Notes: generated from the sequence alone by a model not told the origin. DNA of 64,000 bases from Phoronis australis (GCA_002633005.1 NMRA01000132.1:802585-866584); one strand, 5' to 3'; counted from the first letter of the stretch, positions 6,001-34,600 are shown. Translations and numbers: made by a program.

Positions 6001-9000
6001 AAAAGTCGGATTTGATATAAAATTTCCGCAGCAAATTCCTTTCTTACCGCGGCGTTGCAGACGACGTTCACCGCAAAAAGCGGAAGTTGCTCTTTATGTT
6101 CGGAGGAACGTAAATTGTCAACATTGCCGGGGCATCTGGGATAGCGTGGTGTGATTTTCAATGGCGTCTCGCTCTGCAGCCAAAAATGTGTGGGTTGGGA
6201 GTAGACGGGCGAGCTAAAAAAACGCAGACGCATGCTACTGATGGTGGTAACGTTTTTCGTTTTTTTTTTGTTTTTTTTTATTTAGTCCTCCCGATTTTTG
6301 TTGGGGAAAGGTTCACATTGACCAGTCCTAGGCTGGTTATCGGGCGATGATTTGGGCCGTAAAAGTTTCAAAGTTTCCGCGTTTTTTGTCATTGGTCATT
6401 CCAAGCCCTGGTAAAGGTTACCTGCACACACCAAACAAAATGCTCACTGATCTTTTCATTACGTTCATTGTAAGCAGGGTAAATGTAATACACACCACTA
6501 CAATGAGCCCGAGTGAGAGATTTGTAATTGTCAGGTGATTCAATAATAAATTTTCATTGGTTGCCGAAGGTAATCTGCTATGTACTTAGCTCACCTAGCC
6601 CACATGCTGGTAAGGATTTACACAAGGTAAAAGAAAACCACCTAGTAAGAATTCGCTTCACCAATTCCGCCAATATAATACAGTTACGGTGACATTTATG
6701 CATGCCAGAGCATATAAATTATCAAGCAAGTTGACCTACTTTTGTTTGTTGTCCACTACTGTAGACTTAATGACCCAATTCAGTTCAGATTGACAGTTGA
6801 CTCAGGCATGTGACATCAGTTTTTGGAACAGTAGTCCATATTCGCACCTCATGACGCGAAACTAGAGAAAACTGTTTGGGGGCTAATGATCAGTTCAGAA
6901 GAAAATGACCCAAGAAGGAAAATAGATGAGCAGTGAACTGGAGAGAATCAGCTTAGAATTAGAGAAAAGTCAGAGAATATCAGTAATTAACAAGTGAGAC
7001 AGTTGAACAAATGTTTTCCCACTTTGTAAGTAATCCCTTTTATAGACAGTGAAGAGGGATACAAGTTTGTGCTTTGCATGAAAGTTGAATTGCTTTCTCA
7101 TCAGCTAAGGAGTAGTTGAAGTGGTTAGGTGCAAACAATCATTGCTTTTTGTCCTCGTATTCTACAGGTGGGTTAATCGCAAAGACCCTGATGGTAAGAA
7201 CCTGTTTTCTGGTGGCTTCCTGGGACTGGATAACATCGGAATCTTTGACAGGTCACGACCCCTGCCAACTGGAGGTCACCTAGAACAGGTACTGGGCATT
7301 TTATAACAAAAATTGCTCACCTACAAAAACTTTCAATGCGTACTAGTGTGGTAGTAGAATTCAGTCATTTATTGTAAAACTACAATTTGAGGTTGGTGAC
7401 ATGTTTTTATTTTTTGTTTTGTGGGACCAGAATGTTGCAATTTCACCATTTTTTTCACAATAAACCTTGCAACCACTGGATACTTAACATAACAATTAAA
7501 CATGAAACATTTACTGTTCGCCAGTACGTGAGTAATTTTACCAGTTCCTGTGAGCAGGTTGATGGTGTAGCTTGGATGGTATTCCACAGTTGCACCATGC
7601 AGAACTGACCAAGTCCATGGTCCTTGTCTGGTAGCTATGGCAACATGACAGAATGTCTACACTTTCTCCTTATTCATCTTTTACATTTTGTGCTAATTAA
7701 ATGTAATTTTTCATTCAAGTTAATGTTCTCTACTTTTTGTGGCTGTTTTTGTTGTTTTCCCTATTAGGAAAACCTTTTTCCTTTACTTTTTATTCATTCA
7801 ATTTTCAACTTTGAAATCAAATTTTATTCACCAGACCAATTGAAGTGGTTAGTGAGAGAATTTTCACTCCTGTCTACTTCCTTGTCACAGGCTGATGGTA
7901 CTGCATGGATGGCATTCTTTTGTTGTGTCATGTTGGACATTGCCTTAGAGTTGGCAGCTGTAGACCCAGTCTATGAGGACATGGCTAGCAAGTTCTTTGA
8001 ACACTTTGTGACTATTGCGGATGCTATCAACAAGTTTGGCAGCAACAACAGTGGTATGTGGTGGAGATTGTTTGTGTTGGTGTCAACTGCTCTTCAAGCA
8101 AATCCAGGCATTGTTTGCATTAAGATCGCCTATTGATGTTGTTTTTATGCTTTGTAAAGTGTATGGTTAATTACTTTGAACCATTAGTTTACTTTTAAGT
8201 TTTCAATGCAGTCGCAACATATGACATCACGTTATGCCTCTGGGAAATTTCAGGAAAGTCTCAGCACGTGCGTAATCTCATTGTGCCTATGTAAGTTTTC
8301 AACATAGTCTGAACACGCATGAGATCATGTCATGCTTGTGAACGTTTTAAATACAGTTGGCTCAACAGGCATGAGATCGTGTTTTAAAATGCTTTTTTCT
8401 TACTCAGGTTTGTGGGACAGCTTGGATAGTTTCTACTATGACCACCTCAGTCTCAATGGGCACAGTTTCCCATTGCGAATCCGCTCCATGGTGGGTCTTG
8501 TACCTCTCTTCACCTGTTTGGTCCTGGAGGAGAGTCGTATGAAGAAATTACCTGGATTTTATAAACGCACGAAGTGGTTCTTGAAGGAGCGAGCTGACTT
8601 AGCCTCTCAGGTGAAATGTTAAAGCAATTGATTTGGAAAAAGAAAACAATTGTATGATAAAATTTGCTGTGAATAGTTTCAAGCCAGTTTAATATCAGAA
8701 GATTACATTATTTATTTTCATAAAAGTCAAGATGGCATAAAATTAGTTAACATGACTTTGAGTTAGTAAGATGGAATAAAAATTATTTGTTCAGTGCTTT
8801 TACAATCAGTTGTATTAAAGTCTCCGGCACACGGTAAAATGTAAATTGGGTGTACCTCTTGCCTGATTTGCGAAAACCTTTGGTTTTAAACATTGAAACT
8901 GTTTCAAGGCTTTAAAGAAAACAATCAGACTAGACTTCCCTATTACTTTGTCATTCAATTGTGAGCAGATCTCCTTCATGACATATGAGAAGAGCAATGA

Positions 9001-11475
9001 AGAGCGCTACCTACTGGCCATTCCAACGCGAGAAAAGCTGGAGCAAGTGTTGAAAGTAGTCCTGGATGAAGAGGAGTTCCTATCGCCATATGGGATACGG
9101 TCACTCTCAAAGGTTAGTGATCTTGAAGAAGGTGATTTCTAGTTTATGGTTTTAAAGTTACAGAGATGGTCACCTAGTAGCATGACTGCCAGCATTTACA
9201 CAATCAAGTTAAGGGTAGTCTGGAATGGTTTATATAAAGCGAGTAGACTTAAGATAATGTTGAGGAAGACATATGTTGAGTGTATTTTGTGTCTTGCAGA
9301 GCTGTGTGTGAACTTTATCTTTATTCTCTTTTTGTTGCTAGTTTCACGAGGAGAATCCCTTTGTGATGCATGTGGGTGGTGAGGAATACTCCGTGTCCTA
9401 TGTACCGGGAGAGTCCAATAGCTACTTGTTTGGGGGAAACAGCAACTGGCGTGGACCTATTTGGCTGTGTAGTAAGGCTTGTGATTCCACTAAATTTTCC
9501 TTGAATTTTTTTGAAATCTGAGTTGATTGATTATAGATAAAGCAACTTTTTGTTTTTCTTACTCAAACCTAAAACAAAAATTAACAACATAAATTAAAAA
9601 CGATTTTAAGAACCATTCCCATTTACCGTCATTTTCACAAGCATTAACTGTTCATTGATCTCCTCTCTAGAAAAAAGTGGATGAAAATTTTGAACGTTTT
9701 TTTACCAGATTAACTTTTATGTTCGGTTAAAAGTGTTCATAATTTATCGTTGTGTTCTGTGATGACAGTAAAAACGTAAATTTTTGTGTGGACAAAATCA
9801 GGCAATTTTTGGTCTGTTGGTAGACACTCAATCAAAAAACTAACTAGTAGCTAAATCTGTTGATCATATTGGCAAAAATTTCTTATTTATGGAAAAATTT
9901 GCTCAGAAAAATCTAAATTTTCTAATGTTTGTGAACTTTGATACATTACATCCTAAGGAAAGTTTTGTACTTATTCATTGTAAATAATATACGTGCACGC
10001 TGCATTGTATTATTGTTTCATCTGACTTGTAGCTATTCATGCTAGAGTGAAATGAAAAAAAATCAAAAAATTCTATCAATTGTTCTATAATGCTACATTG
10101 TCAGTCCTATCCATTTTTAGTGAACTACTTGGTGGTACGGTCCCTGCAGCGCTATCATTATTACTATGGCGACAGTCTCAAGGTCGACTTCCCAACAGGC
10201 TCTGGTAATCAGCTGACGCTGAACGAGGTGGCTAAACAACTGTGCGCCCGAATGACTAGACTGTTCTTACCCGATGATCAAGGTCATCGCCCTTGTCATG
10301 GTAAACATTTGACATCTTGTGCATTGTAAATGTATAAACAGGTCAACATTCCTTACTGCTGTACCATCATCAATGACTAAGGTGCATCAAAATGCTGACC
10401 TCTGATTGGTCAGAACTAACTTGGTTAGGTTGTTGTACAAAAATGTGTCTTTTGGGGTGTGTTACATGAACATAGCTCCAGCAAGGTCTTTACATTTTTA
10501 TTTATTGACATTTTTATTGACAATGCCAACTCTTTATAGGTGAGTCTGAGAAGTATGCTAAGGACCCCTTTTGGAAAGATATGATACTATTTTACGAGTA
10601 CTTTGATGGAGACTCTGGACGTGGCTGTGGGGCCAGGTAGTGTATGGTGGTCACATTTTGAGGCTGTTTGTTGTTCTCAGTTGATACAGCTTTCTGGTGG
10701 GGTTTACCTAGTACGTAGTGAATCGAAGGCAGTGTAAAATGACATCAGGCAAAGTGGAAGCATAAGGAACATTTTACAAACTACACCTTTGTAACGCTGT
10801 GAAGTCACGACAGCATCTACCGCATGACTCAGTTTCTAATCCAGGTTTGCAAGATGAGATGTACATTTTTGTGCGAATTGTTTGATATCCCACCGCAGAG
10901 CAGTGGTAATTTGACAACACTGTGGTCTCAAGGAAGTAAATGCTGGAAAATTATGAAATATACCACTGCACTGAATACATACAAGAATGCAAAATGGTGA
11001 ATACTGAATATCCAATCGTCATCTGGGTATAACATGTGTTTCATCATGTAACGGCTATATTGGAAAATAACTGTTTATGTTTTCTCTACTTCATGAGTGG
11101 ACTGACCACAAACATAATGAAAGAAACTGCAAATGACTTTGATATAATGAAGAAATGCTATTCTTTTTCTATATTCTATGAAAGTTGACCTTAAAAATAG
11201 ATGCTAATTGCTTCATAATATTTAGAGCTGCCTTTCATGGTACTAACATTGTGACTGAGGTTTCTAATATTAAGTGGTTTAGTCTTTACTATTGATTGCA
11301 TAGATTGAGATCAACGTTATTTGTAGCACATTGATCCCTTTGTACTTCTTGTATAGTCATTGTTTTGGTCAGCATGCTAAGATGGTTTGAATGCATTATA
11401 TTTCTTTTCAGTCATCAAACAGGTTGGAGTGCTGTGATAGTAAATTTCCTGGAAACTTGTGCAGAGGCGTCCTAA
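1..11475 (+). CDS. Glycoside hydrolase family 63 (MGH1 / YMR196W-like) glucosidase, 5'-truncated by the window edge; 15 exons
   Basis: GT-AG exons 1-27, 545-614, 1401-1550, 2767-2969, 3733-3957, 4477-4593, 5337-5488, 7168-7288, 7891-8053, 8408-8610, 8969-9112, 9342-9471, 10121-10300, 10540-10636, 11412-11475 (TAA); 2046 nt, phases consistent. Motifs: [123 protein letters not shown]. Confidence 0.93.
1835..2010 (+). pseudogene. Truncated THAP zinc-finger coding remnant, probably from a DNA transposon, in a GH63 intron
   Basis: [14 protein letters not shown]...FHTFP...[13 protein letters not shown] matches the THAP N-terminal pattern (C-x-V-x-G-C-x, FHxFP, R..W...I.R). The frame stops at 1993, before the CxxHF motif. 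Confidence 0.6.
2961..3231. repeat. Diverged tandem duplication (about 120-150 bp unit) spanning a GH63 5' splice site
   Basis: tacaatactgtaagtgagtagat... (2961) recurs as tacaatactgtatgtgagtagat... (3082); both copies end in tttaccagtgttacaata. Confidence 0.75.
4106..4331. repeat. Diverged 47-48 bp minisatellite, about 5 copies
   Basis: Recurring unit like tagcctagcactgaatgaNNgttgtgtgtttatgaaagtNNa. Confidence 0.75.
5923..6410. mobile_element. Non-autonomous hAT-like MITE with 6-bp TSD
   Basis: 13-bp TIRs CAGGGCTTGGAAT / ATTCCAAGCCCTG; GTAAAG on both flanks; subterminal TTTCCGC repeats. Confidence 0.8.
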
Positions 11476-13891: not shown

Positions 13892-16230
13892 ATCCAATCA
13901 ACTTGACTATGGATCAAACAAATCCGATTATTGCTGTGCCTCCTAGAGGCAATTGAGATTTTTTATGTTTGGGTCTGTATTTAGAGTTCCTCAACGGATT
14001 TTCGTGAAATTTTGTAGGGAGACGGTGCTTTCCCATTTTCGGACAGGATCGAAATAACCTGCGACATTTATATGTTACTAATGCTTACCCCTAGAATTAT
14101 ACCGTTTGCAGTGCGGTCATGGATGCGTTTCAACTCTCTTTGTATTGCTTCACTGGTGTTTGATATCTTTTTAGATTTTTTCTGATATCAATTTATTAAT
14201 TCTTGTCATGATAATGCAATCTACATCCTCAAAGCTAATATTTAAAGCATTTATAAACGTAGCATCCATCACACTTTTGATTTTATATTATGAAATTTGT
14301 CCTCTAATTGTTCCTTGGTCAAAGTAGTGATCTGCAGTTAGAAAGTGCCAACAGGCTCCACAAGTTGGCTTGTCACCGCTGCTCATTTTGTGACGTGCAT
14401 ATTCGCAAGCACCAATGAACTGTCAGGTTTTCCAATCTCAGACATCACTTTTCAGCTGAGTTTGGAATAAGTCAAGCTCAGTTCTATGGTGGTTGTGTAC
14501 AACAAGTCTGGTTTCTTTTGACGAGGCATGGGTTTATGGCTGCTTACCTGTAGATTCTACATCTTGCTTTGCAAACTAGTAATAAAAATTTAACTAATTT
14601 AGTGAAACAACAAAGAATGGTTCAATTGTTTATTTATTAAAATTGCTCTACACCACCCTGGAGCTCCTAGGTCCAGAGAAATCACGAAATGTCTGCACCT
14701 TCAAAATTAACAAAAGCATTTACAACATTCTTGCAAATTAAACGCCTAGTAACTAAACATAAGAATATTCAGTCTTTCAAGCAATCTTTGGCCAATTCCA
14801 TGCATATGAACTGAACACGCTGCCCGTAACCAATTTATTTTGTGGCACTTCACAGCAATTCTGCTAAACATGTTGAAGGCCTCTGTCGAGAGTGCGCATT
14901 CAGGGACAAAGTTGATTGGACACCCTAAGATGTTCAAAATACAAAATGAAATAGGATAGAACAGAAACTAAATTGTTTGAAAGCACTCGATGGCTACGCG
15001 TAATGAAAGAATCGTCTTGCGTACCAGCATTTGGAAATTGGTAAGGTACAGACACGGANATCCAATCAACTTGACTATGGATCAAACAAATCCGATTATT
15101 GCTGTGCCTCCTAGAGGCAACTGAGATTTTTTTAAGTTTGGGTCTGTATTTAGAGTTCCTCAACAGATTTTCGTGAAATTTGGTAGGGAGATGGTGCTTT
15201 CCCATTTTCGGACAGGATCGAAATAATCTGCACCATTTATATGTTACTAATGCTTACCCCTAGAATTATACCGTTTGCAGTGCGGTCATGGATGCGTTTC
15301 AACTCTTTGTATTGTTTCACTGGTGTTTGATATCTTTTTAGATTTTTTCTGATATCAATTTATTAATTCTTGTCATGATAATGCAATCTACATCCTCAAA
15401 GCTAATATTTAAAGCATTTATAAACCTAGCATCCACAACACTTTTGATTTTACATTATGAAATTTGTCCTCTAATTGTTCCTTGGTCAAAGTAGTGATCT
15501 GCAGTTAGAAAGTGCCGACAGCTCAGGCTCCACAAGTTGGCTTGTCACCGCTGCTCATTTTGTGACGTGCATATTCGCAAGCACCAATGAACTGTCAGGT
15601 TTTCCAATCTCAGACATCACTTTTCAGCTGAGTTTGGAATAAGTCAAGCTCAGTTCTATGGTGGTTGTGTAAAACAAGTCTGGTTTCTTTTGACGAGGCA
15701 TGGGTTTATGGCTGCTTACCTGTAGATTCTACATCTTGCTTTGCAAACTAGTAATAAAAATTTAACTAATGTAGTGAAACAACAAAGAATGGTTCAATTG
15801 TTTATTTATTAAAATTGCTCTACACCACCCTGGAGCTCCTAGGTCCAGAGAAATCACGAAATGTCTGCACCTTCAAAATTAACAAAAGCATTTACAACAT
15901 TCTTGCAAATTAAACGCCTAGTAACTAAACATAAGAATATTCAGTCTTTCAAGCAATCTTTGGCCAATTCCATGCATGTGAACTGAACACGCTGCCCGTA
16001 ACCAATTTATTTTGTGGCACTTCACAGCAATTCTGCTAAACATGTTGAAGGCCTCTGTCGAGAGTGCGCATTCAGGGACAAAGTTGATTGGACACCCTAA
16101 GATGTTCAAAATACAAAATGAAATAGGATAGAACAGAAACTAAATTGTTTGAAAGCACTCGATGGCTACGCGTAATGAAAGAATCGTCTTGCGTACCAGC
16201 ATTTGGAAATTGGTAAGGTACAGACACGGA
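13892..16230. repeat. About 1.17-kb near-identical tandem duplication joined at an N; probable haplotype-overlap assembly artefact
   Basis: 13892-15058 and 15060-16230 differ only by scattered SNPs and small indels; the junction is exactly the single N at 15059. Confidence 0.85.
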
Positions 16231-18178: not shown

Positions 18179-21100
18179 TTAGTTCTTATCATTGATGTTG
18201 AGTTTGGATATATCAACAGGTTCAATATCTTTTTCTGTCATCTCTCTTGGTTTGCCACCGCCAAATATGCTGGCTGATTTTTCACTGACTTCTGCAGGGG
18301 CGAGCACCGGGTCCTTCACTGACCGTGGTAAAAGTTTTAACTTGGGCCTTTGTGCCAGGGACTCTGCAAAGGACGACGTAGGTGAGCCGTACAAGTGTAA
18401 GTGGGTTACTTACAAAAAGGCACCAGGCTTAGCAAAGCATAACTACATAAAGAAGAAGAATTAAATTCTTGTCATTCTCGCTTATCTCAAGCAAAGGTTG
18501 TTAGAGATATTTTAAAGAACCCTGCTGTACCCATCATCATTGATTTTCAATCGTACTCTAAGTTTTAAAAAGGCAGACTCCCTGTAATAAGGTTGGGTCA
18601 CGACTGTTTCTTTACAGAGATTAAAGGTGCATTCTAGGCTTAAGAAACACAGAGAAATACTTGATGTCGACGACTCAACTCGATATGGGTGTTAGTCACA
18701 TGACAAGAGACTAGAAGCTCATTTCATCGGACAGAATGACGTTCCTTTCTATGCAACTATTGTCAGGAGCCATCGTCAAGCTACCATTGCATTATTGGGG
18801 CAAGTGACTTCATGAAGAGGGATGGTGAACCTGAATGGCTGACGAGATCTGTTGCAAAAAGATCTGGTTGGAACAACTGTATATCAGTCCAAGTCAACCA
18901 ATCAGATTTGCCTACCATCGCCATGACGTCACACGTCCCAATCCAACAGTTCTTCGAAAATGACTGCTGAGAAGAAAAGTCAAATACGTTCACGGCTAGA
19001 TTGAATTTTTGTCCGCATACAAAAGAACTTCGTCACGTAAGCGTCAGACAGATGGAAAGATTTCTAAAATCTGTTGGTCTACGTGTACCAAACATAGCTT
19101 CATTTGCATTGGAAAATACTTTCACTCGTTCATATTCCAGACCACCTTCAGAATCTGATGTTACAGCATTATTAGAAGGATGGGTGTGTGTATGAGGTAC
19201 ACTCATAGTAGGTCAATAACGTGCAGTTTGTTTTAGAACAGGCTTGCTTCTTCATCTAGGAACACTGTAACACCTAAAAGTGGCCAGAGAAAATACCAGC
19301 AAAAGAGTTATTCCAATGACAATGGGAGAGAAGTTGACAGAAACACACCAATAGATTTGGCTTTTTGATGCTACTACATCACCACCTCAAAACGGATTTA
19401 GGAAATACACATATTTCGGTAAAACACTTCACTTTACCTGGTGAACTGGTTTTAAATTCTTCATAACGACTACCACTGTCCTGCCTCTGACGACTCCTGT
19501 ACCCACCACCAAAGCCTCCTCGATCATAGCCTCCCCGCCTACCGCCATCAGGACCCCCTCGGTGGCCATAGCCTCCACCCCTGGGAGGTCTATCATCCCT
19601 GAAGTTTCCATAGTCGTTTTGCCCGTAACCTCCACCACCTCCCCTTCCCCGATCACCATAACTACCACGACCACCTCTGAATCCTGAAAAAGAAATTAAA
19701 ACCCAATGTGTGTTCACCTCAAGATCATGAAGACAAACAAATGGCAATTCCTTAAATAACGTTGCACACACTGCTGTTCTATTTCTTAATATAACGTCAA
19801 AACTAGAAACAGATTCATGAACTAATCAATAGCAACACCTCTTTTCGTTGCTAACTTAAGCAGAGCAAGAAGACAATGAAGAAACAGTATTTACCAGTAG
19901 ACAAAATGTTACTTACTCAAAAGGCATAATCAAATTGTTACAGGCTACACATCTGCATGAATGTGAACAAGTAACCAGAGTTGGTACATTAATATTATAC
20001 TTTGGTAACACTCCTTCCTCCAAACATGTAATGTTGATGAATGTGGAAAGTTGGCGCCATTACAAAGTATTTAGCTGTTGGCGACCTGTTAGTATTTGTC
20101 GACCGAGCTCGGCGGGAATCTTCGAGTCACATGGCCACTTGTTTACCAGAGCCTTGCCTCAAGTAACAACCACTAGGTGGTGTTTAACAACCGCCAAGCA
20201 CCACCCACGACGATTCCCTCCAGTAACCCGACGAAGGGCCCAGGACGCGCCCGAAAGCTAGGTGCGCAAATAAAAACAGGTCGCCGATAGGTAACTACTT
20301 TGTTCCCTATGTAATGTTGATAATCTAAACAGGATGCATTATGTGCATTCAAGAACACAAAGTAAAACTTAGTGATCGAATATGACAAACTCTAGATTGT
20401 GTACAATACACCTCTAGCTGTCACAGTTTCAAAACTACACTTACATTCACGTTACCATTACTATTACACTTTGTGTCTATTTATACCAATCATCCCTACC
20501 ACTTTCCTAGTTGTCACTCCAGTTATACCAATCATCCCTACCACATTCCTAGTTGTCACTCCAGTTTTACCAATAATCCCAACCACTTTCCTAGTTGTCA
20601 CTCCAGTTATACCAATCATCCCTACCACTTTCCTAGTTGTCACTCCAGTTATACCAATAATCCCAACCACTTTCCTAGTTGTCACTCCAGTTATATCAAT
20701 AATCCCAACCACTTTCCTAGTTGTCACTCCAGTTTTACCAATAATCCCAACCACTTTCCTAGTTGTCACTCCAGTTTTACCAATAATCCCAACCACTTTC
20801 CTAGTTGTCACTCCAGTTATATCAATAATCCCAACCACTTTCCTAGTTGTCACTCCAGTTTTACCAATAATCCCAACCACTTTCCTAGTTGTCACTCCAG
20901 TTTTACCAATAATCCCAACCACTTTCCTAGTTGTCACTCCAGTTTTACCAATAATCCCAACCACTTTCCTAGTTGTCACTCCAGTTTTACCAATAATCCC
21001 AACCACTTTCCTAGTTGTCACTCCAGTTTTACCAATAATCCCAACCACTTTCCTAGTTGTCACTCCAGTTTTACCAATAATCCCAACCACTTTCCTAGTT

Positions 21101-24100
21101 GTCACTCCAGTTTTACCAATAATCCCAACCACTTTCCTAGTTGTCACTCCAGTTTTACCAATAATCCCAACCACTTTCCTAGTTGTCACTCCAGTTTTAC
21201 CAATAATCCCAACCACTTTCCTAGTTGTCACTTCACTTATACCAATAATCCCTACCACTTTCCTAGTTGTCACTCCAGTTATACCAATCATCCCTACCAC
21301 ATTCCTAGTTGTCACTCCAGTTATACCAATAATCCCAACCACTTTCCTAGTTGTCACTCCAGTTATATCAATAATCCCAACCACTTTCCTAGTTGTCACT
21401 CCAGTTATACCAATAATCCCAACCACTTTCCTAGTTGTCACTCCAGTTATACCAATAATCCCAACCACTTTCCTAGTTGTCACTCCAGTTATATCAATAA
21501 TCCCAACCACTTTCCTAGTTGTCACTCCAGTTATACCAATAATCCCAACCACTTTCCTAGTTGTCACTCCAGTTATACCAATAATCCCAACCACTTTCCT
21601 AGTTGTCACTCCAGTTATATCAATAATCCCAACCACTTTCCTAGTTGTCACTCCAGTTATACCAATAATCCCAACCACTTTCCTAGTTGTCACTCCAGTT
21701 ATACCAATAATCCCAACCACTTTCCTAGTTGTCACTCCAGTTATATCAATAATCCCAACCACTTTCCTAGTTGTCACTCCAGTTATACCAATAATCCCAA
21801 CCACTTTCCTAGTTGTCACTCCAGTTATACCAATAATCCCAACCACTTTCCTAGTTGTCACTCCAGTTATATCAATAATCCCAACCACTTTCCTAGTTGT
21901 CACTCCAGTTATACCAATAATCCCAACCACTTTCCTAGTTGTCACTCCAGTTATACCAATAATCCCAACCACTTTCCTAGTTGTCACTCCAGTTATATCA
22001 ATAATCCCAACCACTTTCCTAGTTGTCACTCCAGTTATACCAATAATCCCAACCACTTTCCTAGTTGTCACTCCAGTTATACCAATAATCCCAACCACTT
22101 TCCTAGTTGTCACTCCAGTTATATCAATAATCCCAACCACTTTCCTAGTTGTCACTCCAGTTTTACCAATAATCCCAACCACTTTCCTAGTTGTCACTCC
22201 AGTTATACCAGTAATCCTAACCACTTTCCTAGTTGTCACTCCACTTATACCAATCATCCCTACCACATTCCTAGTTGTCACACCAGTTATACCAATCATC
22301 CCTACCACATTCCTAGTTGTCACTCCAGTTATACCAATCATCCCTATCACTTTCTTTGTCATTACACTAGTAACACCAATAATCCCTTTCCTTAACATAG
22401 ACAAAATAATCAACTTACCATCTCCTCTCCCTCTGCCTCTATTGCCACCTTTCCTTTGGTCAGCCACATTTACCCTCAACTGCTGGCCGTTGAGTACCTA
22501 AAATGGAAAATAACGGCACACAATACAATACATGATTGATCAGAAACTTGTAAATGAATACCTTTAGCCACTAGGTGCATAATATTAAGACCAAGTGATA
22601 TAACCCATAAATGATATTCAGGATAGCATTCGACAAGTCATCAGCAGTGAGGGATTAATGTCATCCATTTTCAGCTTTATACGAACAGATCTGCCAAATT
22701 TCAAGCAAAAATCCTGCAAAGAGTAAAAGAGATACCTGTGGATGTAAATAACAAAACCACTATCCCAAAATCAACCTCTATGTTCTTTTCAACAGGGACA
22801 GATTTACCAATTTTCAAAATGATACTGCCAGGTTAGGTGGATAGAGAGACGGATACCAAAAAGGGACCAGAAAATAACAAAGTAGCCACTCGGGATGCAG
22901 ACTCTGTTTCAGGAAGCTATCATCGTCATAGACAATAGAAAAACAATTTTGTAAAAATACACCAAAGAACTGGGCAGATAATAGAAAAATGTAAAAAAGT
23001 ACAATTGCCACTAGGGGGAACAAAGGAACTCAGATCTGTCGAAAATCGTCAACATGTGTTGTCAGCCTTACAGGAACACTCTTGCCAAATTTCATGAAGA
23101 TCTTCTAAGCGGTTTAGGTGATACAACAATAAATAACAGACAGCGATGACAATATACAGAGCATAAAAATGGCCACCACGAGGAGTAAAACAAAATAAAT
23201 AAATCCAAAAATAGAAGGCACTGTCAGCTCTATAATAGTAACAGATTTGCCAAATTTCACGAAAAACCATGAATGAACTTTGCAGAGGCAAACTTAAAAA
23301 ATCAAAATTGCCACTAGGGGACACAGCAGGAGTCGAATGGGTAAGAAAAACAATGCTTATCCGTCATCAGCTTCCATCCAAAAGGTGTCGTTAGCTGTGG
23401 GATTTTTTTAGTCAGTGAGTGCAAGTCTTTAAATGAGCCAGGATATAGAGCTCTAGATGAAGGTCTGCTGCAGACAAGAACCAGTTATGGTTTTTTTGGC
23501 CTATTCTCTATTTCAGAAACAACGCAGTCAATACGCAATGCTCTAACATTTGCTACAGATTAAAATAAGTTACTTTTGTTGGATTTTGTTGGTTTGAACA
23601 AATGTGATAGCACAAGTGAATAGTAGGCCACCGCCACATTGCATGTCCCCATTGTTGAGTAGTTGCTAGAGGTGTGACGTAATCACTTTTTGTCCATATA
23701 ATTTACTAACCAAATTTCATGAAAATCCAATCAGGAACATGAAAGACACAGAAGTAAATGTGAAAAACTACAATTGCCACTAGGGGGCACAGTGGATATC
23801 AGATCAGTAAAACTCGTCATATTTTGCCAGCTTTATAGGAACACATCTTCCAAATCTCATAAAGATCCTGCCTAGGTTTAGGAGATATGGCAGAAAATCT
23901 AAGACGCCCACACAGAGATGATGGCCAATATGCACCCAAATCTGTATCCGTGGGAACTTAAAGTCTTGTGGAAGGCTGTCTGAAACTCACATCATCAGGA
24001 ACTTGGAGCGCTTCATGACACCTTTTACTTTGTTTATAGATTTAAAGAACAGCTGGTGTCATCAATTTGGATGTTCACTGCATGGTCCACCAAATTCCCT

Positions 24101-27100: not shown

Positions 27101-30100
27101 GAGTGAATTACAGGTTGTTGCGAAGAAAGAATTTCAAGGTAACTGGTAAGACCATCCAGCAAGACCTCTCGTCAGTTATTAAATTCCACTTTTAGCAACA
27201 AGAAACGATGTTTAAATTAATTTTCTGCTTTCTTGTATTTTCAATAAATTTGCCTTCTGGCAATTTACAAACAAACACCAGAATTTAAAACCGATGAACT
27301 CCAGAAAACGTTAAGTCTAGGAAACTCACATCTTTTCCTTTAAACATGTATTCTAAGTCACTCTGTACAATATTCTGTGGCAAGTTTCCTACATAAGCAG
27401 TGTAGGGGGGCTCTGTTGGCAGGGGCCGTCTCCCTCTACCACCACCGCCACCACCACGGTTTCCGCGGTAACCATCATATCCACCTCTGAAACAAAACCA
27501 TGTACATTATTATACGGATGACTGCAGAGTTTGAAAAGAACAGCAGCGTTGATATTGTTAATCTCATTTCCTAAACAGAGTAGAATCCAGTGCCTGCTTG
27601 AGTTTTCTCGAGGCTCTTTCCCCTAGTCAACTTCACTACTATTCAAGTTTCGATGTTAACTGCATTTCACGGCGAAATTAAGGGTTACCGATGGTAACTT
27701 ACCGTCACCTCACCTTCAGAGTGGTTTAGAAAACTAATTCAGCGAAGTTATCGCAAGGTGGCACTAATATGATTTTTTAATGTAAAGAATATAGCAAGTA
27801 CATAGTTAAATTGAAACAGAATGCTTATAATGAATAGTAGAAAAGCATGTTAAAAATTCAACCAGTCACTGCCCCCTGTTGGCAAATTCAGTGACCACTG
27901 CCAATAACTTCAATCCAAGGCCGAAGTTAAGTGTTCCTACTGACACATAATTTGGAGCTTTGGAGCCAGTAGGAAAACTTTTAACACTGTTTTAGTTTCA
28001 TTGTTAAATCCATGTTTTACTTCAATACAAATCGACAGTGAACTCTACATTTAATTATCTATATTACTGAAAATAAGTAGGAATCTTTTAATACAATGCT
28101 CCCAATTTAAGGACTATTTATTTTCATTGAACTAAGGGGTTCAGTTTTTAGTTAAAATTACTAGAAACTGTCATTAGCCATAGATAAAATGATCAAAAGA
28201 ATACATCTCTAAGTAAAGCACGGTACAAATATGCAGTCTCTATCTAGGACAGTTCCATGCAACAGTGATTTCTCTAACAGTTTGTACTTTAATGTACCAA
28301 CTATTTTGCCTGGAAAGCTTCCTGTTCCAAGAGACAAAATTGGCTGTATGAACTATTAGACATGAAAAGCAAGTGCTCGAATTATTAGAGAAAAAGATCG
28401 ATGATAACAATGAGTGCAGCAACGGCCTTCGAGACGATGGTTTGGCGATGTGAACTATATTACCACTAGTAACAAATTACTGGACATCCCGGATGGGATG
28501 ATGGATTTACTTCAAAATATAATACTTGAACACTTTGTAATATTTTCCTCCCATGTTCACAAACTTCAAGAATCCGGCTTCAATACCTCCGCTTTCAGTG
28601 ACGCTGTCTGCCACACGTATTCGAAAAAATCAGGCCAGAGAAATATGGCATTGGCGTTGGCACCCATCCCAATTTGATTTAAATGGGAGATCTTGAATTT
28701 TGAAGAATTACCATCACTCATCAAAAGGTGTCAAACTCTCCCTACTTTGATGTAATTCCTCCGACTTCGAACTAATTCTCCCAGTTTTCTCACAATGTAA
28801 TTGCCAGGTTATTGAGTATATGTGGTGATCGTAGGGACAGTATGCCTCACTGGGTTTCTGCCGCCTCTAGAATTCAGAATTCAAAGTTTGACAATACGTT
28901 ACTGGATGTTTGACTATCATCTCGAGGTAACAACAAATGCAAGTTTTCTGCTTATTGCATCTCAGTCAAACTGGCATCAGCTGATTTCATTTATGTCACT
29001 GGCAGTTCTTTTAGAAATATATATTTTTGGGAACTGTACACGCAAGCATGAATTTACACAGGGTTGATCAGAACTTACTGAAAAGGAATGTTGTGTGCTC
29101 TGGTGCTTAATTGAAATTTCTCAAAAGTTAAAGGAGGCACTTAGTAAAGCAGTAGGCGCATAACATATTCCAAAACAATCAAAGGTAGGCGCATACGTGA
29201 GCATGGCCGTTAACCCAAATGTTCACAGTAATAAGAAACTGAAAGACCGCAGTAGATTCTTTAAGATGTGCTATTACAATACGATTTTGTGCGGCAAAAA
29301 AATTGTCCACATCGAGACTTGAACCAGGGTTTCCCGCATGAGAGTGGAGTGTCCAAATCGTAGCCAAGAGGCAATTGCCAAGCGATTTAGAGATGCTTTA
29401 AATGGCTGTACGCCACACTCGGAAGTCATGTGTCACAACACTTCTCTCCCCTCAAGGGTCAAGTGTGCTGCCTGCCTATTCAGGTTGGCCATGTCTCTGG
29501 TATTTGTTTCCACTGCACTGAGTTGTTGTAGCGTGAATCTGGACAGCCCTGAGAAGGGAGCTCACATCCTGTATGATCGAGGGTTCCACCGTTGTTGAGC
29601 ACCAATGTTAAAAATTATCTCAGGACCGAGACTTCAACCAGCGTTGGCCGTGTGATAGCCGAACATCCAAACCCTACAACCAAGAAGCAACTGCCACTTG
29701 GCAAGTGACTTAGAGAGGCTTCATATGGCTGCACGGCACACCTGGAAGTCATGTGTCACAACAAGGGCGACAACAGTTGACAGGCGGTGAGCACTTGTCG
29801 GTATTTTTTTATTTGGTTAATTCTGTTCTGCTATTGGCTTGCCTGATGAAGACTGTTTCTCTGACATCGGGACTTGAACCCGGGTTGCACGTGTGAGAGC
29901 CGAGCATCTAAACTTGTTCAGCCAAGATGCTAGGCAATGACCATCGCCTCTGTTGGCCCGAACCAGAGGCGATGCAGAGGCTATAGGCGCTCTGTACGCC
30001 GGAAGCTTTTCGGCGAATTATGCCTCGCACCGACTAAACCATCAGAGTCACGTTGTTATAAATACCTTTTGCGCATAGAGGAACACCTGAGGAGGTTGTC

Positions 30101-31465
30101 GATGTGTTTAATTCCTTCCAACTCGAACAAATACTCCCATTATCAAACTTTTTCTTCGAGCAGTCCCTATTTCAGTCCCCAAAATCGTGAACTTACCATT
30201 TTTACACTGCGCACGCTCCAATTTTTACCGCGCTCGCTAGGTGATGTGACTTCATGACCTCAATCTTTAAATAGGCCAAAGGTGAGCCATTGCGGTCTTG
30301 TCAGTCAGATGTTCGTTTCCAAAATGCCACCACTTATACTTGTCTTTAATTGGCGTTACTTGAAACTGATTGTATTTCAATGAATTATTGTTTGTATTTG
30401 ATAAAAATAAATGCTGTTGATATGACATTTAATAGTCTTTGTGCACATATTTGACATTTTAATGTTTAACAACACGGCAAATGCACGGCTGGTTCCCGGC
30501 AGCACGTACGCGAAGGGCGGGAACTTCAGCTTTCAAAGTTCGCCGGTAGGTCCGCAACTTCTGACCTTCGGTCTGGTTAAAAAAATGAAAAAGTTGATTT
30601 CACGATTTTGGGAACTGAAATAGGGACTGCTCGAAGAAAAAGTTTCATAACGGGAGTATTTGTTCGAGTTGGAAGGAATTAAACACATCGACAACCTCCT
30701 AAGGTGTTCCTCTATGCGCAAAAGGTATTTATAACAACGTGACTTTGATAGTTTAGTCGGTGTGAGGCATACTTCGCCGAAAAGCTTCCGGCGTACAGAG
30801 CGCCTATAGCCTCTGCATTGCCTCTGGTTCGGGCCAACAGAGGCGACGGTCATTGCCTACCAAGATGCAAGTGATTCTTGGCACGCGATTTTTACAAATT
30901 ATAGAGCCTTTATCTGGCTGCACGTCACGTGTCACAACACCGATGTGGTTCTGTAGGTGTGGGGACGGCATAGTAAGAAATTGAGGTCATGCTTGACAAG
31001 TTGAGCAACGGAAAACTGACATCGAAGTCGGGCAGTGAGGCTCGTGCTCAGGTCACCACTGCTGGCAATTTCAGTTCACAAAATGTGATCTGGTACTCGC
31101 CAAGTCAGACCCTGTATTCCTTTGCATATAATATGAATAATTATCACTTGTGCTATTGTTTCTTTGTTTGTTTCAGTATCACACAGATATAAAATAAATA
31201 TTTTACTTACTTAGACTCACGAATGTGGCAGTATTTGTCAGACCGCCAGGCGCCGTGCACCGCCGGGTGACCAAACAACTAAAGAATTCGAGTACTCTGG
31301 CAATCAAAAACAAACGCGCTGATCGACCTTTTGGTGCAATCAAAATGCCCTTAATAGTTTCGTATATTGATTTACGGAATTGAGCTGCAATCAATTCACT
31401 TACCCGCCAAATGAACCACCACCATACCTGTCGAAATCGTCTCGCGAGTTGTGGTAGTCTGCCAT
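18179..31465 (-). CDS. EIF4H: Eukaryotic translation initiation factor 4H (RRM plus RGG-rich region), 7 coding exons, about 280 aa
   Basis: Minus-strand exons 31465-31404 ([20 protein letters not shown]), 27486-27330 ([18 protein letters not shown]2), 26421-26373 ([13 protein letters not shown]), 25096-25032 (GVAYIEF, RNP1), 22497-22419 (LRVNVAD), 19683-19438 (RGG-rich), 18363-18179 ([11 protein letters not shown]...[10 protein letters not shown]...TAA); 843 nt, phases consistent. Confidence 0.93.
20090..20312. mobile_element. One-ended fragment of the MITE family at 26614-27013
   Basis: cgaagggcccaggacgcgcccgaaagctag...cgataggtaac...ttccctatg is similar to 26930-27013. Confidence 0.6.
20481..22390. 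repeat. 42-bp minisatellite, about 45 copies, in eIF4H intron 5
   Basis: Unit TTATACCAATAATCCCAACCACTTTCCTAGTTGTCACTCCAG; it accounts for the three 640-700 aa ORFs with a 14-aa period. Confidence 0.97.
24510..24905. mobile_element. MITE, probably PIF/Harbinger-type
   Basis: Inverted ends CTGGGCCCGGTCTC-AATCTTT-TACTCGAAA / TTTCGAGTA-AAAGATT-GAGACCGGGCCCAG; internal CTCGA repeats. Confidence 0.75.
26060..26258. repeat. Diverged 31-bp minisatellite, about 6 copies
   Basis: Unit like gttatgtcacacaNtgtNaaccaacaNttaa. Confidence 0.7.
26614..27013. mobile_element. Palindromic MITE with about 100-bp imperfect TIRs
   Basis: CATAGGGAAT...TTACCTATCG...CTAACTTTC...GCCCTTCGTTG is mirrored at 26927-27013, ending ATTCCCTATG; no clear TSD. 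Confidence 0.7.
29288..29763 (-). mobile_element. TRIM (miniature non-autonomous LTR retrotransposon) with tRNA-derived LTRs, Helenus-like
   Basis: Two about 155-bp direct repeats (29763-29606 and 29440-29288 on -), each starting TGTTGTGACAC, ending ACA and holding a tRNA-like core with a B-box (GGTTCAAGTC). PBS-like TTGGTGCTCAAC follows the 5' LTR; polypurine tract GAGGGGAGAGAAG abuts the 3' LTR. Confidence 0.72.
29854..30939 (-). mobile_element. Third tRNA-containing LTR (solo-like), interrupted by a MULE-type MITE
   Basis: 5' part TGTTGTGACAC... at 30939-30869; tRNA-like part GCTCGGCTCTCACACGTGCAACCCGGGTTCAAGTCCCGATG at about 29905-29865. Confidence 0.6.
29931..30859. mobile_element. Mutator-like (MULE) non-autonomous element, about 260-bp TIRs, 9-bp TSD
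   Basis: TIRs start TAGGCAATGACC and end GGTCATTGCCTA; perfect TSD CCAAGATGC at 29922-29930 and 30860-30868. The mirror-image ORFs 29937+ and 30853- reflect the TIRs. Confidence 0.9.
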
Positions 31466-31671: not shown

Positions 31672-34600
31672 ATGGCGCCCGACAGCGTGGATGTCACGCC
31701 GCTCTCCAAACACAAGTTTACTGATGACTTTTTAAACATATTTTGGGATCTGGCTGAAGTTAAAGACGATAAAAGAATATCAGCTACAGAGAACCTGATT
31801 GTTTACTTGGATTCTAAACAAGCAAAGGTTTATTTTATGAATTTCAGATCTTTGCACTTTGTCTTTGCAGATGTTCGAAGTTCGTGCCCGATGATGGCGA
31901 TGGCGATGGGGAGGCACTAGTCGGATATAACGGACCCTAACTTATTCCAAATAAATTCACTAAATGTAGGTCTAAATGAATGATTTTGGTATCGTTCCAT
32001 TCCTCAGACATCTGGCTAACCGTACAAATCCTTTTCACGACCCTGTTCCGAACTCGGTCCACTTTAGCCACGTGAAATCGGCAGCCATTTCAGGGAACTT
32101 ACTGTATCTAGCGACATCTATCGGCGATTTGCTACAACACGCGCTGTTCCTTTTTCATCAGTCAACATAGACAACGATAACATGACGATGACAGATACGA
32201 TCGTGAGACGACGAAGGTGATGACGAGAGCAGACGTACAATGATTAATAACGACTGACGTTAATAATATTGACGAAATCGACCAATGACGTTGACTAATG
32301 AAAAAGGAACAGCGCGTGTTGTAGCAAATCGCCGATAGATGGCGCTAGGTATAGTAAGTTCCCTGAAATGGCTGCCGATTTCACAATGCGCGTGGCTAAC
32401 GCTAAAGTGGACCAAGTTCAGAATGACGTAGTTATAGACTANTCAGTGGACTAAAATAAAGGGCTAATTATCGCTCTTCAAACGTTCATAAAAAGTCAAC
32501 GGCTCAACGGAATTTGTTAATTTTTTTTTTGTTTGAATCTGTTTTGGATGTTTTTTTAAATCAATGCATTTTTAAATATTAAATAAGAATTTTAATTTTT
32601 TTGTCACGTCCCTAACGTAGTTATAGACTAGAGTAATTGAGGGTCGTGAAAAAGATTTGTACAGATAGCCAGATGTCTGAGGAATGCAACGATACCAAAA
32701 TCATTCATTTAGACCTTCATTTAGTGGATTTATTTGGAATAAGTTAGGGTCCATTATATCCGACTAGTGCCGATGGGGACGGGTTGAATGGCAATACGAA
32801 AACCTCGTGCTGAATTGACCTTAGCAGGACTAAGCCTGCTGATTTTTTTTGGTGGGGTTGGCAGGCTGACTGCGAACGGAATCAAGTGGCAATAGTGACG
32901 GTTCCTCCATAACTTAAAAACCAGAAGTTTTTCAACGAGTTATGCGTCATTGTTTAATCTGTCAAAGTCATATTGCTATTTGCTATAAGTACCTAGTGGG
33001 ACACCTTAGGAAGCCATTGATGTCTTGAATTTTTCCCAGTTCAAATGAATACTCTTACAATCAAAATTGTGAGCGAGCTTTCGTTCAGCCACCCAAATCA
33101 GCAGACGCAACTGGCCATTTTTACGCTACACTCGCCAGGACATATGACACCATAACCACTGGCATGAGCTCTGTAAAAATGGCCAATTGCCATTTTGGGC
33201 AGCTGAAGGAATGAATGTTCGAGCAGAAGGTTTGTTTATGGGATATTTGTTAGAATTGGAAGGAAGTTGAGACATCAACGGCCTCCAGAGATGTCTCACC
33301 ATGCACAAAATGAACAGCATGAGCAATATGACTTCAATGGTTTAATCAGTGCGAGGTATAATTTTCCAAGTTTCCGGCATATGGAGGACTCTATGTCTTA
33401 GTGAAGACTGTGTTAAAGTTGCCATTGGGTGTTCTCTGTTGTTGGGGAATAATTGGTCCAGCTGCGCTGCCCTCTGTCTCGACTCTGGAGTAGTTTTGGT
33501 CTTCCGAACCGTCTCGGATTCTGAGCAATTTAGGAGTATACCTTTATCTAGCAGTACAATTTAGCAATTGCGGTTAAAGTGCAATCGACACCCAAGACAT
33601 GATCACCGCGTGGTGGGATAGTGAATTTCTGGTGCGGCTATAAATTAGAAAGTCAGCTGTTTCATTAAGTTTGAATCCAATATGCACCTTTGCCTTTTTA
33701 AAAATTAATTGCTTGACTTGTTTTCATTACATTTGGTTTTGTAGTGTGGGTATCAGAACCCCAAACAATAAAAACTTGTGCAATTGCCAATCTTTTACAT
33801 GGTTAACTTGTGCTCATGTAGTGTATGAATAGGCTTCGGTATTGATTGGGCTTCGAAAATTTGTAAATACGCCTGAAAAGGTCCAAGTCATTTTTTAGAA
33901 TAAGAATACTAAAGTGGCGAAAAACACCTTCTAAAAGGAAGCATTCTCCTTCGGGGCCTTTTTCACTTTGTGGCTGTTGGTCTAGATTTTTAATAACAAC
34001 GATGTATTTAAACCGGCTTGACATGTTTCGACATTTATTAAAACACCATCCTCAGAAAAAAAACCAGTGGCCACCTTGCTAGGCCCAACAATAAGTAATG
34101 ATACACAGACACCATCAGTTTATAGGCTGAGTGTAACTGACTGTCTGTGTATCATTACCTGTTGTTACCTGTTTACTTCCTGTAATATTGTGCTCGAATA
34201 TTTGTGTAATGGTTTGGGATTTTTACCAGGTCGTCTTACAAAATCTGAGGTCACATAGGCAACCTGCTGGTTACCAAATTGAGCCCTGTTCTGGCTTTGC
34301 AGTGTCGTGATTTCTAGTATTTTCTCGGAAGGGATAGATGTTAGAGAAGTGATGACCAAGGGGAAAAGCCGGATCGGTGAAGTTATCAACTACTGTGGAA
34401 TTCCTGTGAATCTCAAGAATTTGAATCGTTTTTATTTTGAGCCGTATCTTAACTAGTTGGTTAAAGCCAAGAGTCCGTGAATATATCTGACTGCAACATT
34501 ATTACTAAAGTAATCTCTGGCTGGATTTTGTTGGTCTTTGTTCAAGAGTTAACTTTTGTTGATTTTAGGCTGATGGTGCCTGCGCTGAGATCGTCTATGC

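What the first reader, a model, noticed from the sequence alone, without database searches (positions are those of the whole stretch)
29288..29763. Miniature LTR retroelement whose LTRs contain a tRNA-Glu-like Pol III cassette
Seen on -: LTR (TGTTGTGACAC ... tRNA-like core with a CTCTCA anticodon-loop-like stretch and GGTTCAAGTC B-box ... T-run ... ACA), then TTGGTGCTCAAC (9 of 11 matches to the tRNA-Lys PBS TGGCGCCCAAC), about 165 bp of non-coding interior, PPT GAGGGGAGAGAAG and a second LTR. Known: Cassandra TRIMs carry 5S-derived LTRs, and tRNA-bearing TRIMs have been named Helenus. Inference: a SINE-like hybrid, transcribed by Pol III and mobilised by Gypsy-type machinery, probably an uncatalogued family. 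Caveats: the LTRs are only roughly 75% alike by eye and no TSD survives.
Basis: partly seen in the sequence, partly recalled or inferred. Interest (0 to 1): 0.75.

Follow-up and report, generated by a model that had tools for sequence, protein, structure and literature searches.

The report
Helenus mini-retrotransposon with self-pairing leader
This is an old, decayed copy of a small gene-less jumping element of the known Helenus type, repeated elsewhere in this animal's genome, and just ahead of the tRNA-like sequence that likely acts as its promoter sits a short palindrome, shared with most non-insect animal Helenus families, that likely lets the element's RNA pair with itself or with a second copy for packaging and copying.

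Summary
Real, and of a known kind. The minus strand reads LTR (29763-29606), tRNA-Lys-type primer site, 165-bp interior, 13-purine tract, LTR (29440-~29288); LTRs 80% alike, no target-site duplication. Sequencing runs of the same organism hold dozens of related contigs with the same TG start, an intact A box, T4-CWACA ends and adjoining primer site or purine tract. A third, sister LTR lies 80 bp upstream, split by a DNA transposon. All sit in intron 1 of an eIF4H-like gene. This fits Helenus (Kojima 2024); no listed animal family looks like it. The scan has noted Helenus-type elements before on other DNA (45 findings, at least 14 genomes). 'tRNA-Glu' is not supported. Added here: a 10-nt palindrome 13 nt before the A box. 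By eye, 50 of 76 non-insect animal Helenus LTRs carry a palindrome at this place, in 28 different sequences, with G·U but no A·C pairs; my searches found no mention of it. It likely marks the RNA's 5' end and pairs RNA to RNA (dimer or end-to-end loop). Pol III transcription, the helper element, the palindrome's role and the host phylum are untested or unresolved.

The parts
29606..29763 (-). 5' LTR, 158 bp, TGTT...AACA
   Evidence: other copies stop matching exactly at 29763 (8 contigs in X1, 6 in X2)
29686..29695 (-). palindrome position in the 5' LTR; two transitions leave five pairs, three of them G·U
   Evidence: about 90% of depth from other copies restores both letters (rows 29686 and 29691)
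29672..29682 (-). decayed A box of the 5' LTR
   Evidence: other copies read a canonical TGGCYGAAYGG here (tables 5c and 7)
29629..29639 (-). B box of the 5' LTR (2 mismatches to the recalled consensus)
29610..29614 (-). T5 run, Pol III terminator-like; T4 in the piles of other copies seen
29594..29604 (-). primer-binding site, tRNA-Lys(CTT) type, 9 of 11
29441..29605 (-). 165-bp non-coding interior
   Evidence: single copy in the window; part of it (29470-29517) is matched by a few other contigs
29441..29453 (-). polypurine tract, 13 purines
   Evidence: at least 3 other contigs run from LTR into this tract
29288..29440 (-). 3' LTR, about 153 bp; end beyond the T-run (29302-29296) uncertain
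29370..29379 (-). perfect 10-nt palindrome GGCAATTGCC, starting 13 nt before the A box
29315..29325 (-). B box of the 3' LTR (1 mismatch)
30860..30939 (-). sister LTR (LTR-A), 5' half, up to the transposon insertion
29844..29930 (-). sister LTR (LTR-A), 3' half: A box 29924-29914, perfect B box 29880-29870, likely end at 29844; no primer site or purine tract, so likely a solo LTR
29931..30859 (.). 929-bp non-coding DNA transposon with about 275-bp inverted arms and a 9-bp target-site duplication (30868-30860 and 29930-29922), inserted into LTR-A; not part of the retroelement
   Evidence: summed depth 1e5-6e5 against 26-50 for single-copy contigs
27487..31403 (-). intron 1 of an eIF4H-like gene, which holds all of the above in the gene's own direction
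   Evidence: GT...AG ends and matching phase read from the sequence

Best explanation
This is an old, decayed copy of a multi-copy gene-less LTR retrotransposon of the Helenus type, whose RNA is likely made by RNA polymerase III from the tRNA-like boxes in its 5' LTR, likely pairs through a short palindrome at its 5' end, and would be copied and inserted by the proteins of a Gypsy-type helper element. Shown: the anatomy, the fixed ends, A and B boxes, primer site, purine tract and palindrome, and their recurrence in other copies. Inferred, step by step: (1) Pol III starts about 13 nt before the A box, at the first G of the palindrome (distance recalled from SINE heads; about 0.6). (2) It mostly stops at the T-run after the B box, giving a by-product of about 85 nt; leaky read-through of that T4 and a stop at the same T-run in the 3' LTR gives a 400-nt template (29695 to 29296) with the tRNA-like part repeated at both ends (about 0.55). 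(3) The palindrome pairs RNA to RNA, either between two templates for co-packaging or between the two ends of one template to help the first strand jump (about 0.45). (4) tRNA-Lys primes the first strand and the purine tract the second, with Gypsy reverse transcriptase and integrase supplied in trans (about 0.8, by analogy with Kojima's animal Helenus). This copy is most likely dead. Membership of the Helenus kind alone I put at about 0.9.
For: Anatomy and chance figures. Other copies in the same organism: 156 contigs laid in X1 and 108 in X2; 35-37 X1 contigs share variants at 29686, 29691, 29706; matching stops at the TG end with mixed flanks (8 contigs X1, agreement 0.51; 6 and 3 in X2); piles of 4-5 contigs end in T4 plus CWACA, one followed by a primer-site-like stretch; 8 of the 13 joints listed fit two LTRs in direct order on one contig; the A box is canonical in other copies. 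Helenus definition, 4-bp duplications and Gypsy-type primer sites in animals. Palindrome: perfect in the 3' LTR (perfect 10-mers occur at 0.11% of window positions); 91% and 89% of X1 depth restore the two letters changed in the 5' LTR. By eye on Data S1, 50 of 76 non-insect animal Helenus LTRs have a fully self-complementary 10-12-mer ending 2-3 nt before the A box, in 28 different sequences; 24 use G·U and none needs A·C; chance for that test is 3.8% per site (tally). The central four letters of the even-length ones also pair, which a hairpin loop would not need. In the predicted fold of the 400-nt unit the 5' palindrome pairs with the 3' one. Palindromes near the 5' end drive RNA dimerization in Ty1 and retroviruses (PMC6844567).
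Against: No target-site duplication; with about 22% divergence per site, 3 or more mismatches of 4 has probability 0.036, so this copy is probably truncated at its right end or a recombinant. No transcript start or end was seen: table 6 is empty, and 0 of 92 (X9) and 0 of 32 (X10) reads are 99% or more alike to this copy. Human Pol III in vitro reads through T4 very poorly and T5 not at all (PMC3141230), which limits step 2. The palindrome is lost in LTR-A; the pile behind 29913 (11 contigs X1, 10 X2, agreement about 0.65) has one outer pair broken, and several single copies in table 5c break a pair. The homodimer gain of the 3' LTR's 84-nt piece (-11.2 kcal/mol) is reached by 55 of 300 shuffles. 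The Helenus tally is by eye, on related consensus sequences, and 22 of 76 non-insect animal families (and, by eye, the wasp families) have no such palindrome, so it is not needed by all Helenus. No helper element was found; no genome was available.
Confidence: 0.6

Rival explanations
1. Same element, but the template RNA is made by Pol II, from a promoter in the first half of the LTR or as part of host introns; the tRNA-like unit would then be a processing or protein-binding signal, and Pol III would make only short by-products.
For: The T-run directly behind the B box should stop Pol III before the primer site. The LTR start carries E-box-like and ETS-like words (motif names recalled; letters). 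This copy lies in sense direction in an intron. Pol III boxes are an indication, not proof (PMC3531059); Kojima also calls Pol III function unvalidated.
Against: A and B boxes are kept canonical in other copies while the cloverleaf is not; Cassandra is reported to use its internal Pol III promoter (as cited).
Confidence: 0.2
2. The palindrome is not an RNA-RNA contact but a small 5' hairpin that protects the RNA, or a symmetric DNA site for a dimeric protein, or a by-product of fold-back during reverse transcription.
For: As a monomer it folds into a 3-bp hairpin (-2.6 kcal/mol). Dimer energy is not above shuffles. 11 of the 50 Helenus cases have an odd length with a central unpaired letter.
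Against: A hairpin does not need its loop to be self-complementary, yet the centres pair in all 39 even-length cases, with 16 different central 4-mers (by eye). A protein site would keep sequence, not only symmetry. A DNA-level or copying origin would give A·C as often as G·U; the count is 24 G·U to 0 A·C.
Confidence: 0.3
3. The two LTRs at this locus come from different insertions (recombination between two copies, or neighbouring solo LTRs with a remnant interior), so this is not one original insertion.
For: K2P 0.24 between LTRs, no duplication at any candidate end, and a third LTR only 80 bp away.
Against: Primer site and purine tract sit exactly where one element needs them; the first 20 nt of the two LTRs are identical, and they resemble each other more than LTR-A. 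This rival changes the history of the copy, not the class.
Confidence: 0.3
4. A retrozyme: the LTR holds a self-cleaving ribozyme that cuts unit-length RNA, as earlier scan notes proposed for other invertebrate Helenus-like elements.
For: Lead from notes e1-10599781 and e1-10588737 (unchecked). A conserved hairpin-like stretch precedes the palindrome.
Against: No ribozyme family at E up to 10; no hammerhead core followed by GAAA and no full twister-like motif in a crude scan; only about 15 nt follow the B box.
Confidence: 0.05
5. Tandem tRNA-derived SINE copies that happen to look like an LTR element.
For: tRNA-type boxes and T-run in each unit.
Against: About 70 nt of conserved sequence lie upstream of the A box and begin at a fixed TG; primer site and purine tract adjoin the units here and in other copies; no tail.
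Confidence: 0.02

Closest known systems
Helenus TRIMs (TRIMp3; Kojima 2024, PMC10886601). Read: main text parts 1-5 of 6; supplement parts 1 and 5-10 of 11
   Same: Two short TG...CA LTRs with tRNA-derived A and B boxes and a T-run, primer site, purine tract, no coding capacity; 476 bp lies within the reported 311-1263 bp; tRNA-Lys site as in many bivalve, nemertean, coelacanth and wasp families.
   Different: LTR sequence matches no listed animal family by eye; six short strings were not found in the supplement (line breaks can hide strings). This copy has lost its duplication. Host phylum unresolved.
Mytilid Helenus-1 group (Helenus-1_MyGa, -1_MyCo, -1_BaPl) and nemertean Helenus-1_LiLo, -1_NGe (Data S1)
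   Same: By eye: tRNA-Lys primer site, a palindrome just before the A box, and, for the mytilid ones, a similar last 20 nt of the interior, which hints at a related helper lineage.
   Different: Different LTR and palindrome sequences; spacer to the A box is TCT, not TT; the upstream hairpin overlaps the palindrome here. No computed alignment was made.
Cassandra (5S-bearing plant TRIM; PMC7215508 passages; Kalendar 2008 only as cited by Kojima) and Ajax
   Same: Small-RNA-derived Pol III promoter inside the LTR of a gene-less element.
   Different: 5S boxes instead of tRNA boxes; Cassandra's RNA is reported to end early in the 3' 5S unit, whereas here the T-run lies behind the B box in both LTRs.
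Ty1 PAL1/PAL2 and retroviral dimer-initiation palindromes (PMC6844567, abstract and introduction)
   Same: Self-complementary sequence near the 5' end of an LTR-element RNA.
   Different: Shown by experiment there, inferred here; here it would be the first ten letters of a Pol III transcript and present at both ends of the template.
biv-TRIM of bivalves (PMC6934838, passages)
   Same: Animal TRIM.
   Different: No canonical primer site; its palindromes are in the interior, not in the terminal repeats.

Membership tests
Helenus (TRIMp3) | two direct LTRs with TG...CA ends | tested here: met
   ends recur in other copies; right end of this copy's 3' LTR uncertain
Helenus (TRIMp3) | short (under about 1 kb), no protein coding | tested here: met
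   476 bp; no ORF of 110 aa or more overlaps it; no reverse-transcriptase motif in the window
Helenus (TRIMp3) | tRNA-derived A box (TRGCY...YGG) and B box (GGTTC) inside the LTR | tested here: met
   B box 0, 1 and 2 mismatches in the three window LTRs; A box decayed in the window, canonical in other copies; no cloverleaf called, as for most Helenus
Helenus (TRIMp3) | primer-binding site next to the 5' LTR | tested here: met
   9 of 11 to the tRNA-Lys site; a similar stretch follows the LTR end in one pile of 4 contigs
Helenus (TRIMp3) | polypurine tract next to the 3' LTR | tested here: met
   13 of 13 purines; at least 3 other contigs
Helenus (TRIMp3) | 4-bp target-site duplication (animals) | tested here: inconclusive
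   absent at 4 of 4 candidate ends of this old copy; both flanks of other copies could not be read (no genome)
Helenus (TRIMp3) | interspersed multi-copy family | tested here: met
   156 and 108 contigs laid, 35-37 sharing variants, mixed flanks; depth is not a copy number
Helenus (TRIMp3) | transcription by Pol III (proposed, unvalidated for Helenus itself) | not testable with these tools
   RNA libraries of unspecified type showed no pile of starts or ends
Helenus (TRIMp3) | Gypsy helper with the same primer site | not testable with these tools
   no genome held
tRNA-derived SINE | element starts at the tRNA head and ends in a LINE-type or simple-repeat tail | tested here: not met
   conserved 70 nt before the A box with fixed TG start; CA end followed by a primer site
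Retrozyme | self-cleaving ribozyme in the terminal repeat | tested here: not met
   decayed copies could hide one
tRNA-Glu gene or Glu-derived head | cloverleaf with a CTC anticodon | tested here: not met
   CTCTCA in 2 of 3 window LTRs and variable among other copies

The most novel reading that the evidence does not exclude
Animal Helenus elements fall into two designs, and the commoner one, from coelacanth, sturgeon, carp-like fishes, bivalves, ribbon worms and this host, begins its Pol III transcript with a sequence-free, symmetry-conserved palindrome that serves as a minimal RNA dimer or cyclisation signal. It would be the smallest packaging signal by which a Pol III RNA hijacks Gypsy particles, and would tie these lineages to one ancient origin rather than repeated SINE captures.
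Probability: 0.4. Interest if true: 0.68.

Novelty: new member of a known kind. Interest (0 to 1): 0.45.

Why it matters
The element itself adds one more family to a kind described in 2024. What could matter is the palindrome. Kojima states that it is not known how such elements stay dependent on their helpers, since their LTRs share no sequence with them. A co-varying self-complementary word at the predicted RNA start offers a cheap, direct test of how a 400-nt Pol III RNA gets packaged and copied, and a marker for sorting Helenus lineages. Young, abundant families such as zebrafish LTR-11_DR (5575 LTRs) carry it and could be assayed.

Tried and rejected
No RNA holder listed for the stretch. 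Runs X5 and X6 (other organisms) matched mainly the DNA transposon; X6 has slight depth on the 5' LTR. tRNA and Rfam scans: nothing relevant. Absence of T4 between the two T-runs is not informative: 45 of 166 GC-matched windows and 1109 of 2000 shuffles also lack it. Homodimer energy not above shuffles, 55 of 300. Pattern scans of public collections: 0 hits, then 3, 3 and 2 hits, all 8 matching only the 20-23-nt motif, so chance. Host placement failed: no hit for two exons of the neighbouring gene, uninformative atlas hits; best eIF4H hit a chiton but summed scores close to a crab's (165 against 157 bits); glycoside hydrolase exons 57-62% to echinoderms, amphioxus, ribbon worm, tunicate alike. 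No look-alike in earlier scan notes by sequence or place; notes on the same genome concern other elements. PMC11481361 and PMC13570524 passages do not bear on the palindrome. Kalendar 2008 is not held. No paper was found for the start-to-A-box distance, so it is recalled.

Full report
OBSERVATION. On the minus strand the window reads a 158-bp LTR (29763-29606), a 165-bp interior and a second LTR from 29440. BLAST within the window aligns the LTRs over 154 columns at 74% (E 9e-21); 117 of 147 ungapped columns match, with 17 transitions and 13 transversions, K2P 0.24. The interior starts with an 11-nt site that differs at 2 positions, both C>T, from the tRNA-Lys primer site in Kojima's Fig. S2 and ends in 13 purines. 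From window frequencies (10 and 62 sites in 128,000) the chance of both at these places is about 1e-7. No target-site duplication is found at 4 of 4 candidate ends. ARAGORN calls no tRNA; Rfam lists 6 and 3 weak matches at E up to 10, none a tRNA gene or ribozyme family.

SURROUNDINGS. A third LTR starts at 30939 and ends near 29844, 80 bp before the 5' LTR. It is split by a 929-bp inverted-repeat transposon with an exact 9-bp duplication. It has a perfect B box, lacks a 13-nt piece and has no primer site or purine tract: likely a solo LTR of a sister subfamily. Everything lies in sense direction in intron 1 (27487-31403) of an eIF4H-like gene. The host is an invertebrate-like animal; its phylum could not be fixed, so no new host phylum is claimed.

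OTHER COPIES. No genome was held. Four DNA runs of one sample hold the stretch; contig 2 of X1 spans 29319-29912 with 4 differences, so the locus is not an assembly artefact. On 29230-29922 at 80% likeness, 156 contigs (X1) and 108 (X2) were laid. Summed depth peaks at 3476 over the 5' LTR against 26.5 over most of the interior; the tool warns that this is no copy number, but 35-37 separate contigs share variants at 29686, 29691 and 29706. Matching stops at the TG start with mixed flanks (8 contigs at 29763 in X1, agreement 0.51; 6 at 29763 and 3 at 29440 in X2). Piles of 4-5 contigs, and 20 RNA reads, end in T4 plus CWACA; one pile of 4 continues into a primer-site-like stretch (agreement 0.67). 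At least 3 contigs run from an LTR into the purine tract. Of 13 joints listed, 8 fit two LTRs in direct order on one contig (distance unknown) and 5 fit the two halves of a single unsplit LTR. Loose ends and inserts show a canonical A box in other copies. Only part of these tables is displayed (166 loose ends and 291 pieces are hidden). RNA reads (92 in X9, 32 in X10) come almost all from other copies, in both directions, with no pile of starts or ends, so they say nothing on Pol III.

WHAT IT IS. Kojima 2024 (PMC10886601; main text parts 1-5 of 6) defines Helenus as TRIMs with tRNA-derived A and B boxes in the LTR, primer site and purine tract; animal families make 4-bp duplications and share primer sites with Gypsy elements; six animal phyla are listed; Pol III function is proposed, not validated. 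The element meets every feature that could be tested except the duplication, which is inconclusive in so old a copy. I read supplement parts 1 and 5-10 of 11, which cover all animal families; parts 2-4 (fungal) and 11 were not read, figures are not held, and Repbase itself could not be searched. No animal LTR resembles this one by eye and six strings were not found. It is a new family of a known kind. The scan has noted the kind before: 45 findings in at least 14 genomes, none like this sequence.

THE PALINDROME. In the 3' LTR a perfect 10-mer, GGCAATTGCC (29379-29370), starts 13 nt before the A box; perfect 10-mers make up 0.11% of window positions. The 5' LTR has two transitions in it; 91% and 89% of X1 depth, and 90% of X2 depth, from other copies restore those letters. 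Against this: LTR-A has lost it, a pile of 10-11 contigs has one outer pair broken, and several single copies break a pair. Reading Data S1 by eye, I asked of each of the 76 non-insect animal LTRs whether the 10-12 nt ending 2-3 nt before the A box are fully self-complementary (G·U allowed, one central letter allowed if odd). 50 pass (15 perfect, 11 odd, 24 with G·U), 4 are partial or ambiguous, 22 fail and instead carry a tRNA-type acceptor strand or start at the A box (names). The same test passes at 3.8% of window positions. The families are related, so no P-value is claimed, but the passes comprise 28 different sequences with 16 different central 4-mers, in coelacanth, sturgeon and paddlefish, carp-like fishes, bivalves and ribbon worms; none of the 4 partial cases shows an A·C pair. 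Wasp families show no such word by eye and were not counted; fungal ones were not assessed. Kojima's text has 0 occurrences of palindrom, dimer, hairpin or self-complementary; a search for Helenus, LTR and palindrom finds 0 papers; TRIMp3 appears in no other relevant paper; two wider searches listed nothing on it; earlier scan notes hold nothing on it. Subscription journals were not searched.

MECHANISM. Shown: parts and their recurrence. Inferred: Pol III begins about 13 nt before the A box (distance recalled from SINE heads, no paper found), that is at the palindrome. The T-run behind the B box is a terminator-like signal in both LTRs; human Pol III reads through T4 poorly and T5 not at all in vitro, though read-through is widespread at weaker signals (PMC3141230 passages). 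A template therefore needs a leak at the first T-run and a stop at the second, giving 400 nt (29695-29296) with about 85 nt repeated at both ends, plus many short by-products. Central complementarity and G·U tolerance point to RNA-RNA pairing: between two templates, as palindromes near the 5' end do for Ty1 and retroviruses (PMC6844567 abstract and introduction), or between the two ends of one template, as the predicted fold of the 400-nt unit shows. Energy alone does not prove this: the dimer gain is matched by 55 of 300 shuffles. tRNA-Lys priming and Gypsy proteins in trans follow by analogy. Rivals: Pol II or host-intron transcription (0.2), a non-pairing role of the palindrome (0.3), a recombinant history for this copy (0.3, compatible with the class), retrozyme (0.05; lead from earlier notes, not supported), SINE tandem (0.02).

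VERDICT. Observation confirmed with corrections; interpretation partly supported. New member of a known kind. Interest 0.45: ordinary as an element, raised by an apparently unreported, co-varying palindrome that makes the packaging and copying of these Pol III-type elements directly testable. Most novel reading: probability 0.4, interest 0.68 if true.

Noticed in passing
window 29931-30859: 929-bp non-coding DNA transposon with about 275-bp inverted arms (95% complementary) and an exact 9-bp duplication, Mutator-like by these traits (family name recalled); extremely abundant in the organism and matched in two other organisms' runs. A diverged relative lies at 32921-33381.
   Followed up: partly
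window 29764-30939: Two members of the same LTR family lie only 80 bp apart in one intron near a two-way promoter; this may reflect an insertion preference.
   Followed up: no
window 29262-29298: The 37 nt just past the 3' LTR's T-run match one other locus (3 differences, also in 4 RNA reads), so the apparent LTR end may belong to another sequence.
   Followed up: partly
window 31465 (-) and 31672 (+): Head-to-head gene starts about 200 bp apart: eIF4H-like and a gene whose later exon has a weak DNA_pol_phi match (E 0.14), likely MYBBP1A-like (name recalled).
   Followed up: partly
window 20481-22387: 84-bp-period tandem array in an intron of the eIF4H-like gene, open in three frames over 669-701 codons.
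   Followed up: no
window about 460-11450 (+): Intron-rich glycoside hydrolase family 63 (MGH1-like) gene, 57-62% identical to animal and bacterial relatives.
   Followed up: partly
window 13892-16230: Tandem duplication of about 1170 bp at 98% identity with an N at the junction, possibly an assembly artefact.
   Followed up: no
PMC10886601 Data S1, Helenus-2_SyJa-LTR and Helenus-2_SyUm-LTR: By eye these two wasp LTRs hold hammerhead-like core words downstream of the B box (motif recalled), which would make them retrozyme-like.
   Followed up: no
PMC10886601 Data S1, Ajax-1_LiLo-LTR: An 8-nt palindrome followed by a tRNA-type A-box-like word precedes the 5S part, by eye the same lead-in as in nemertean Helenus.
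   Followed up: no
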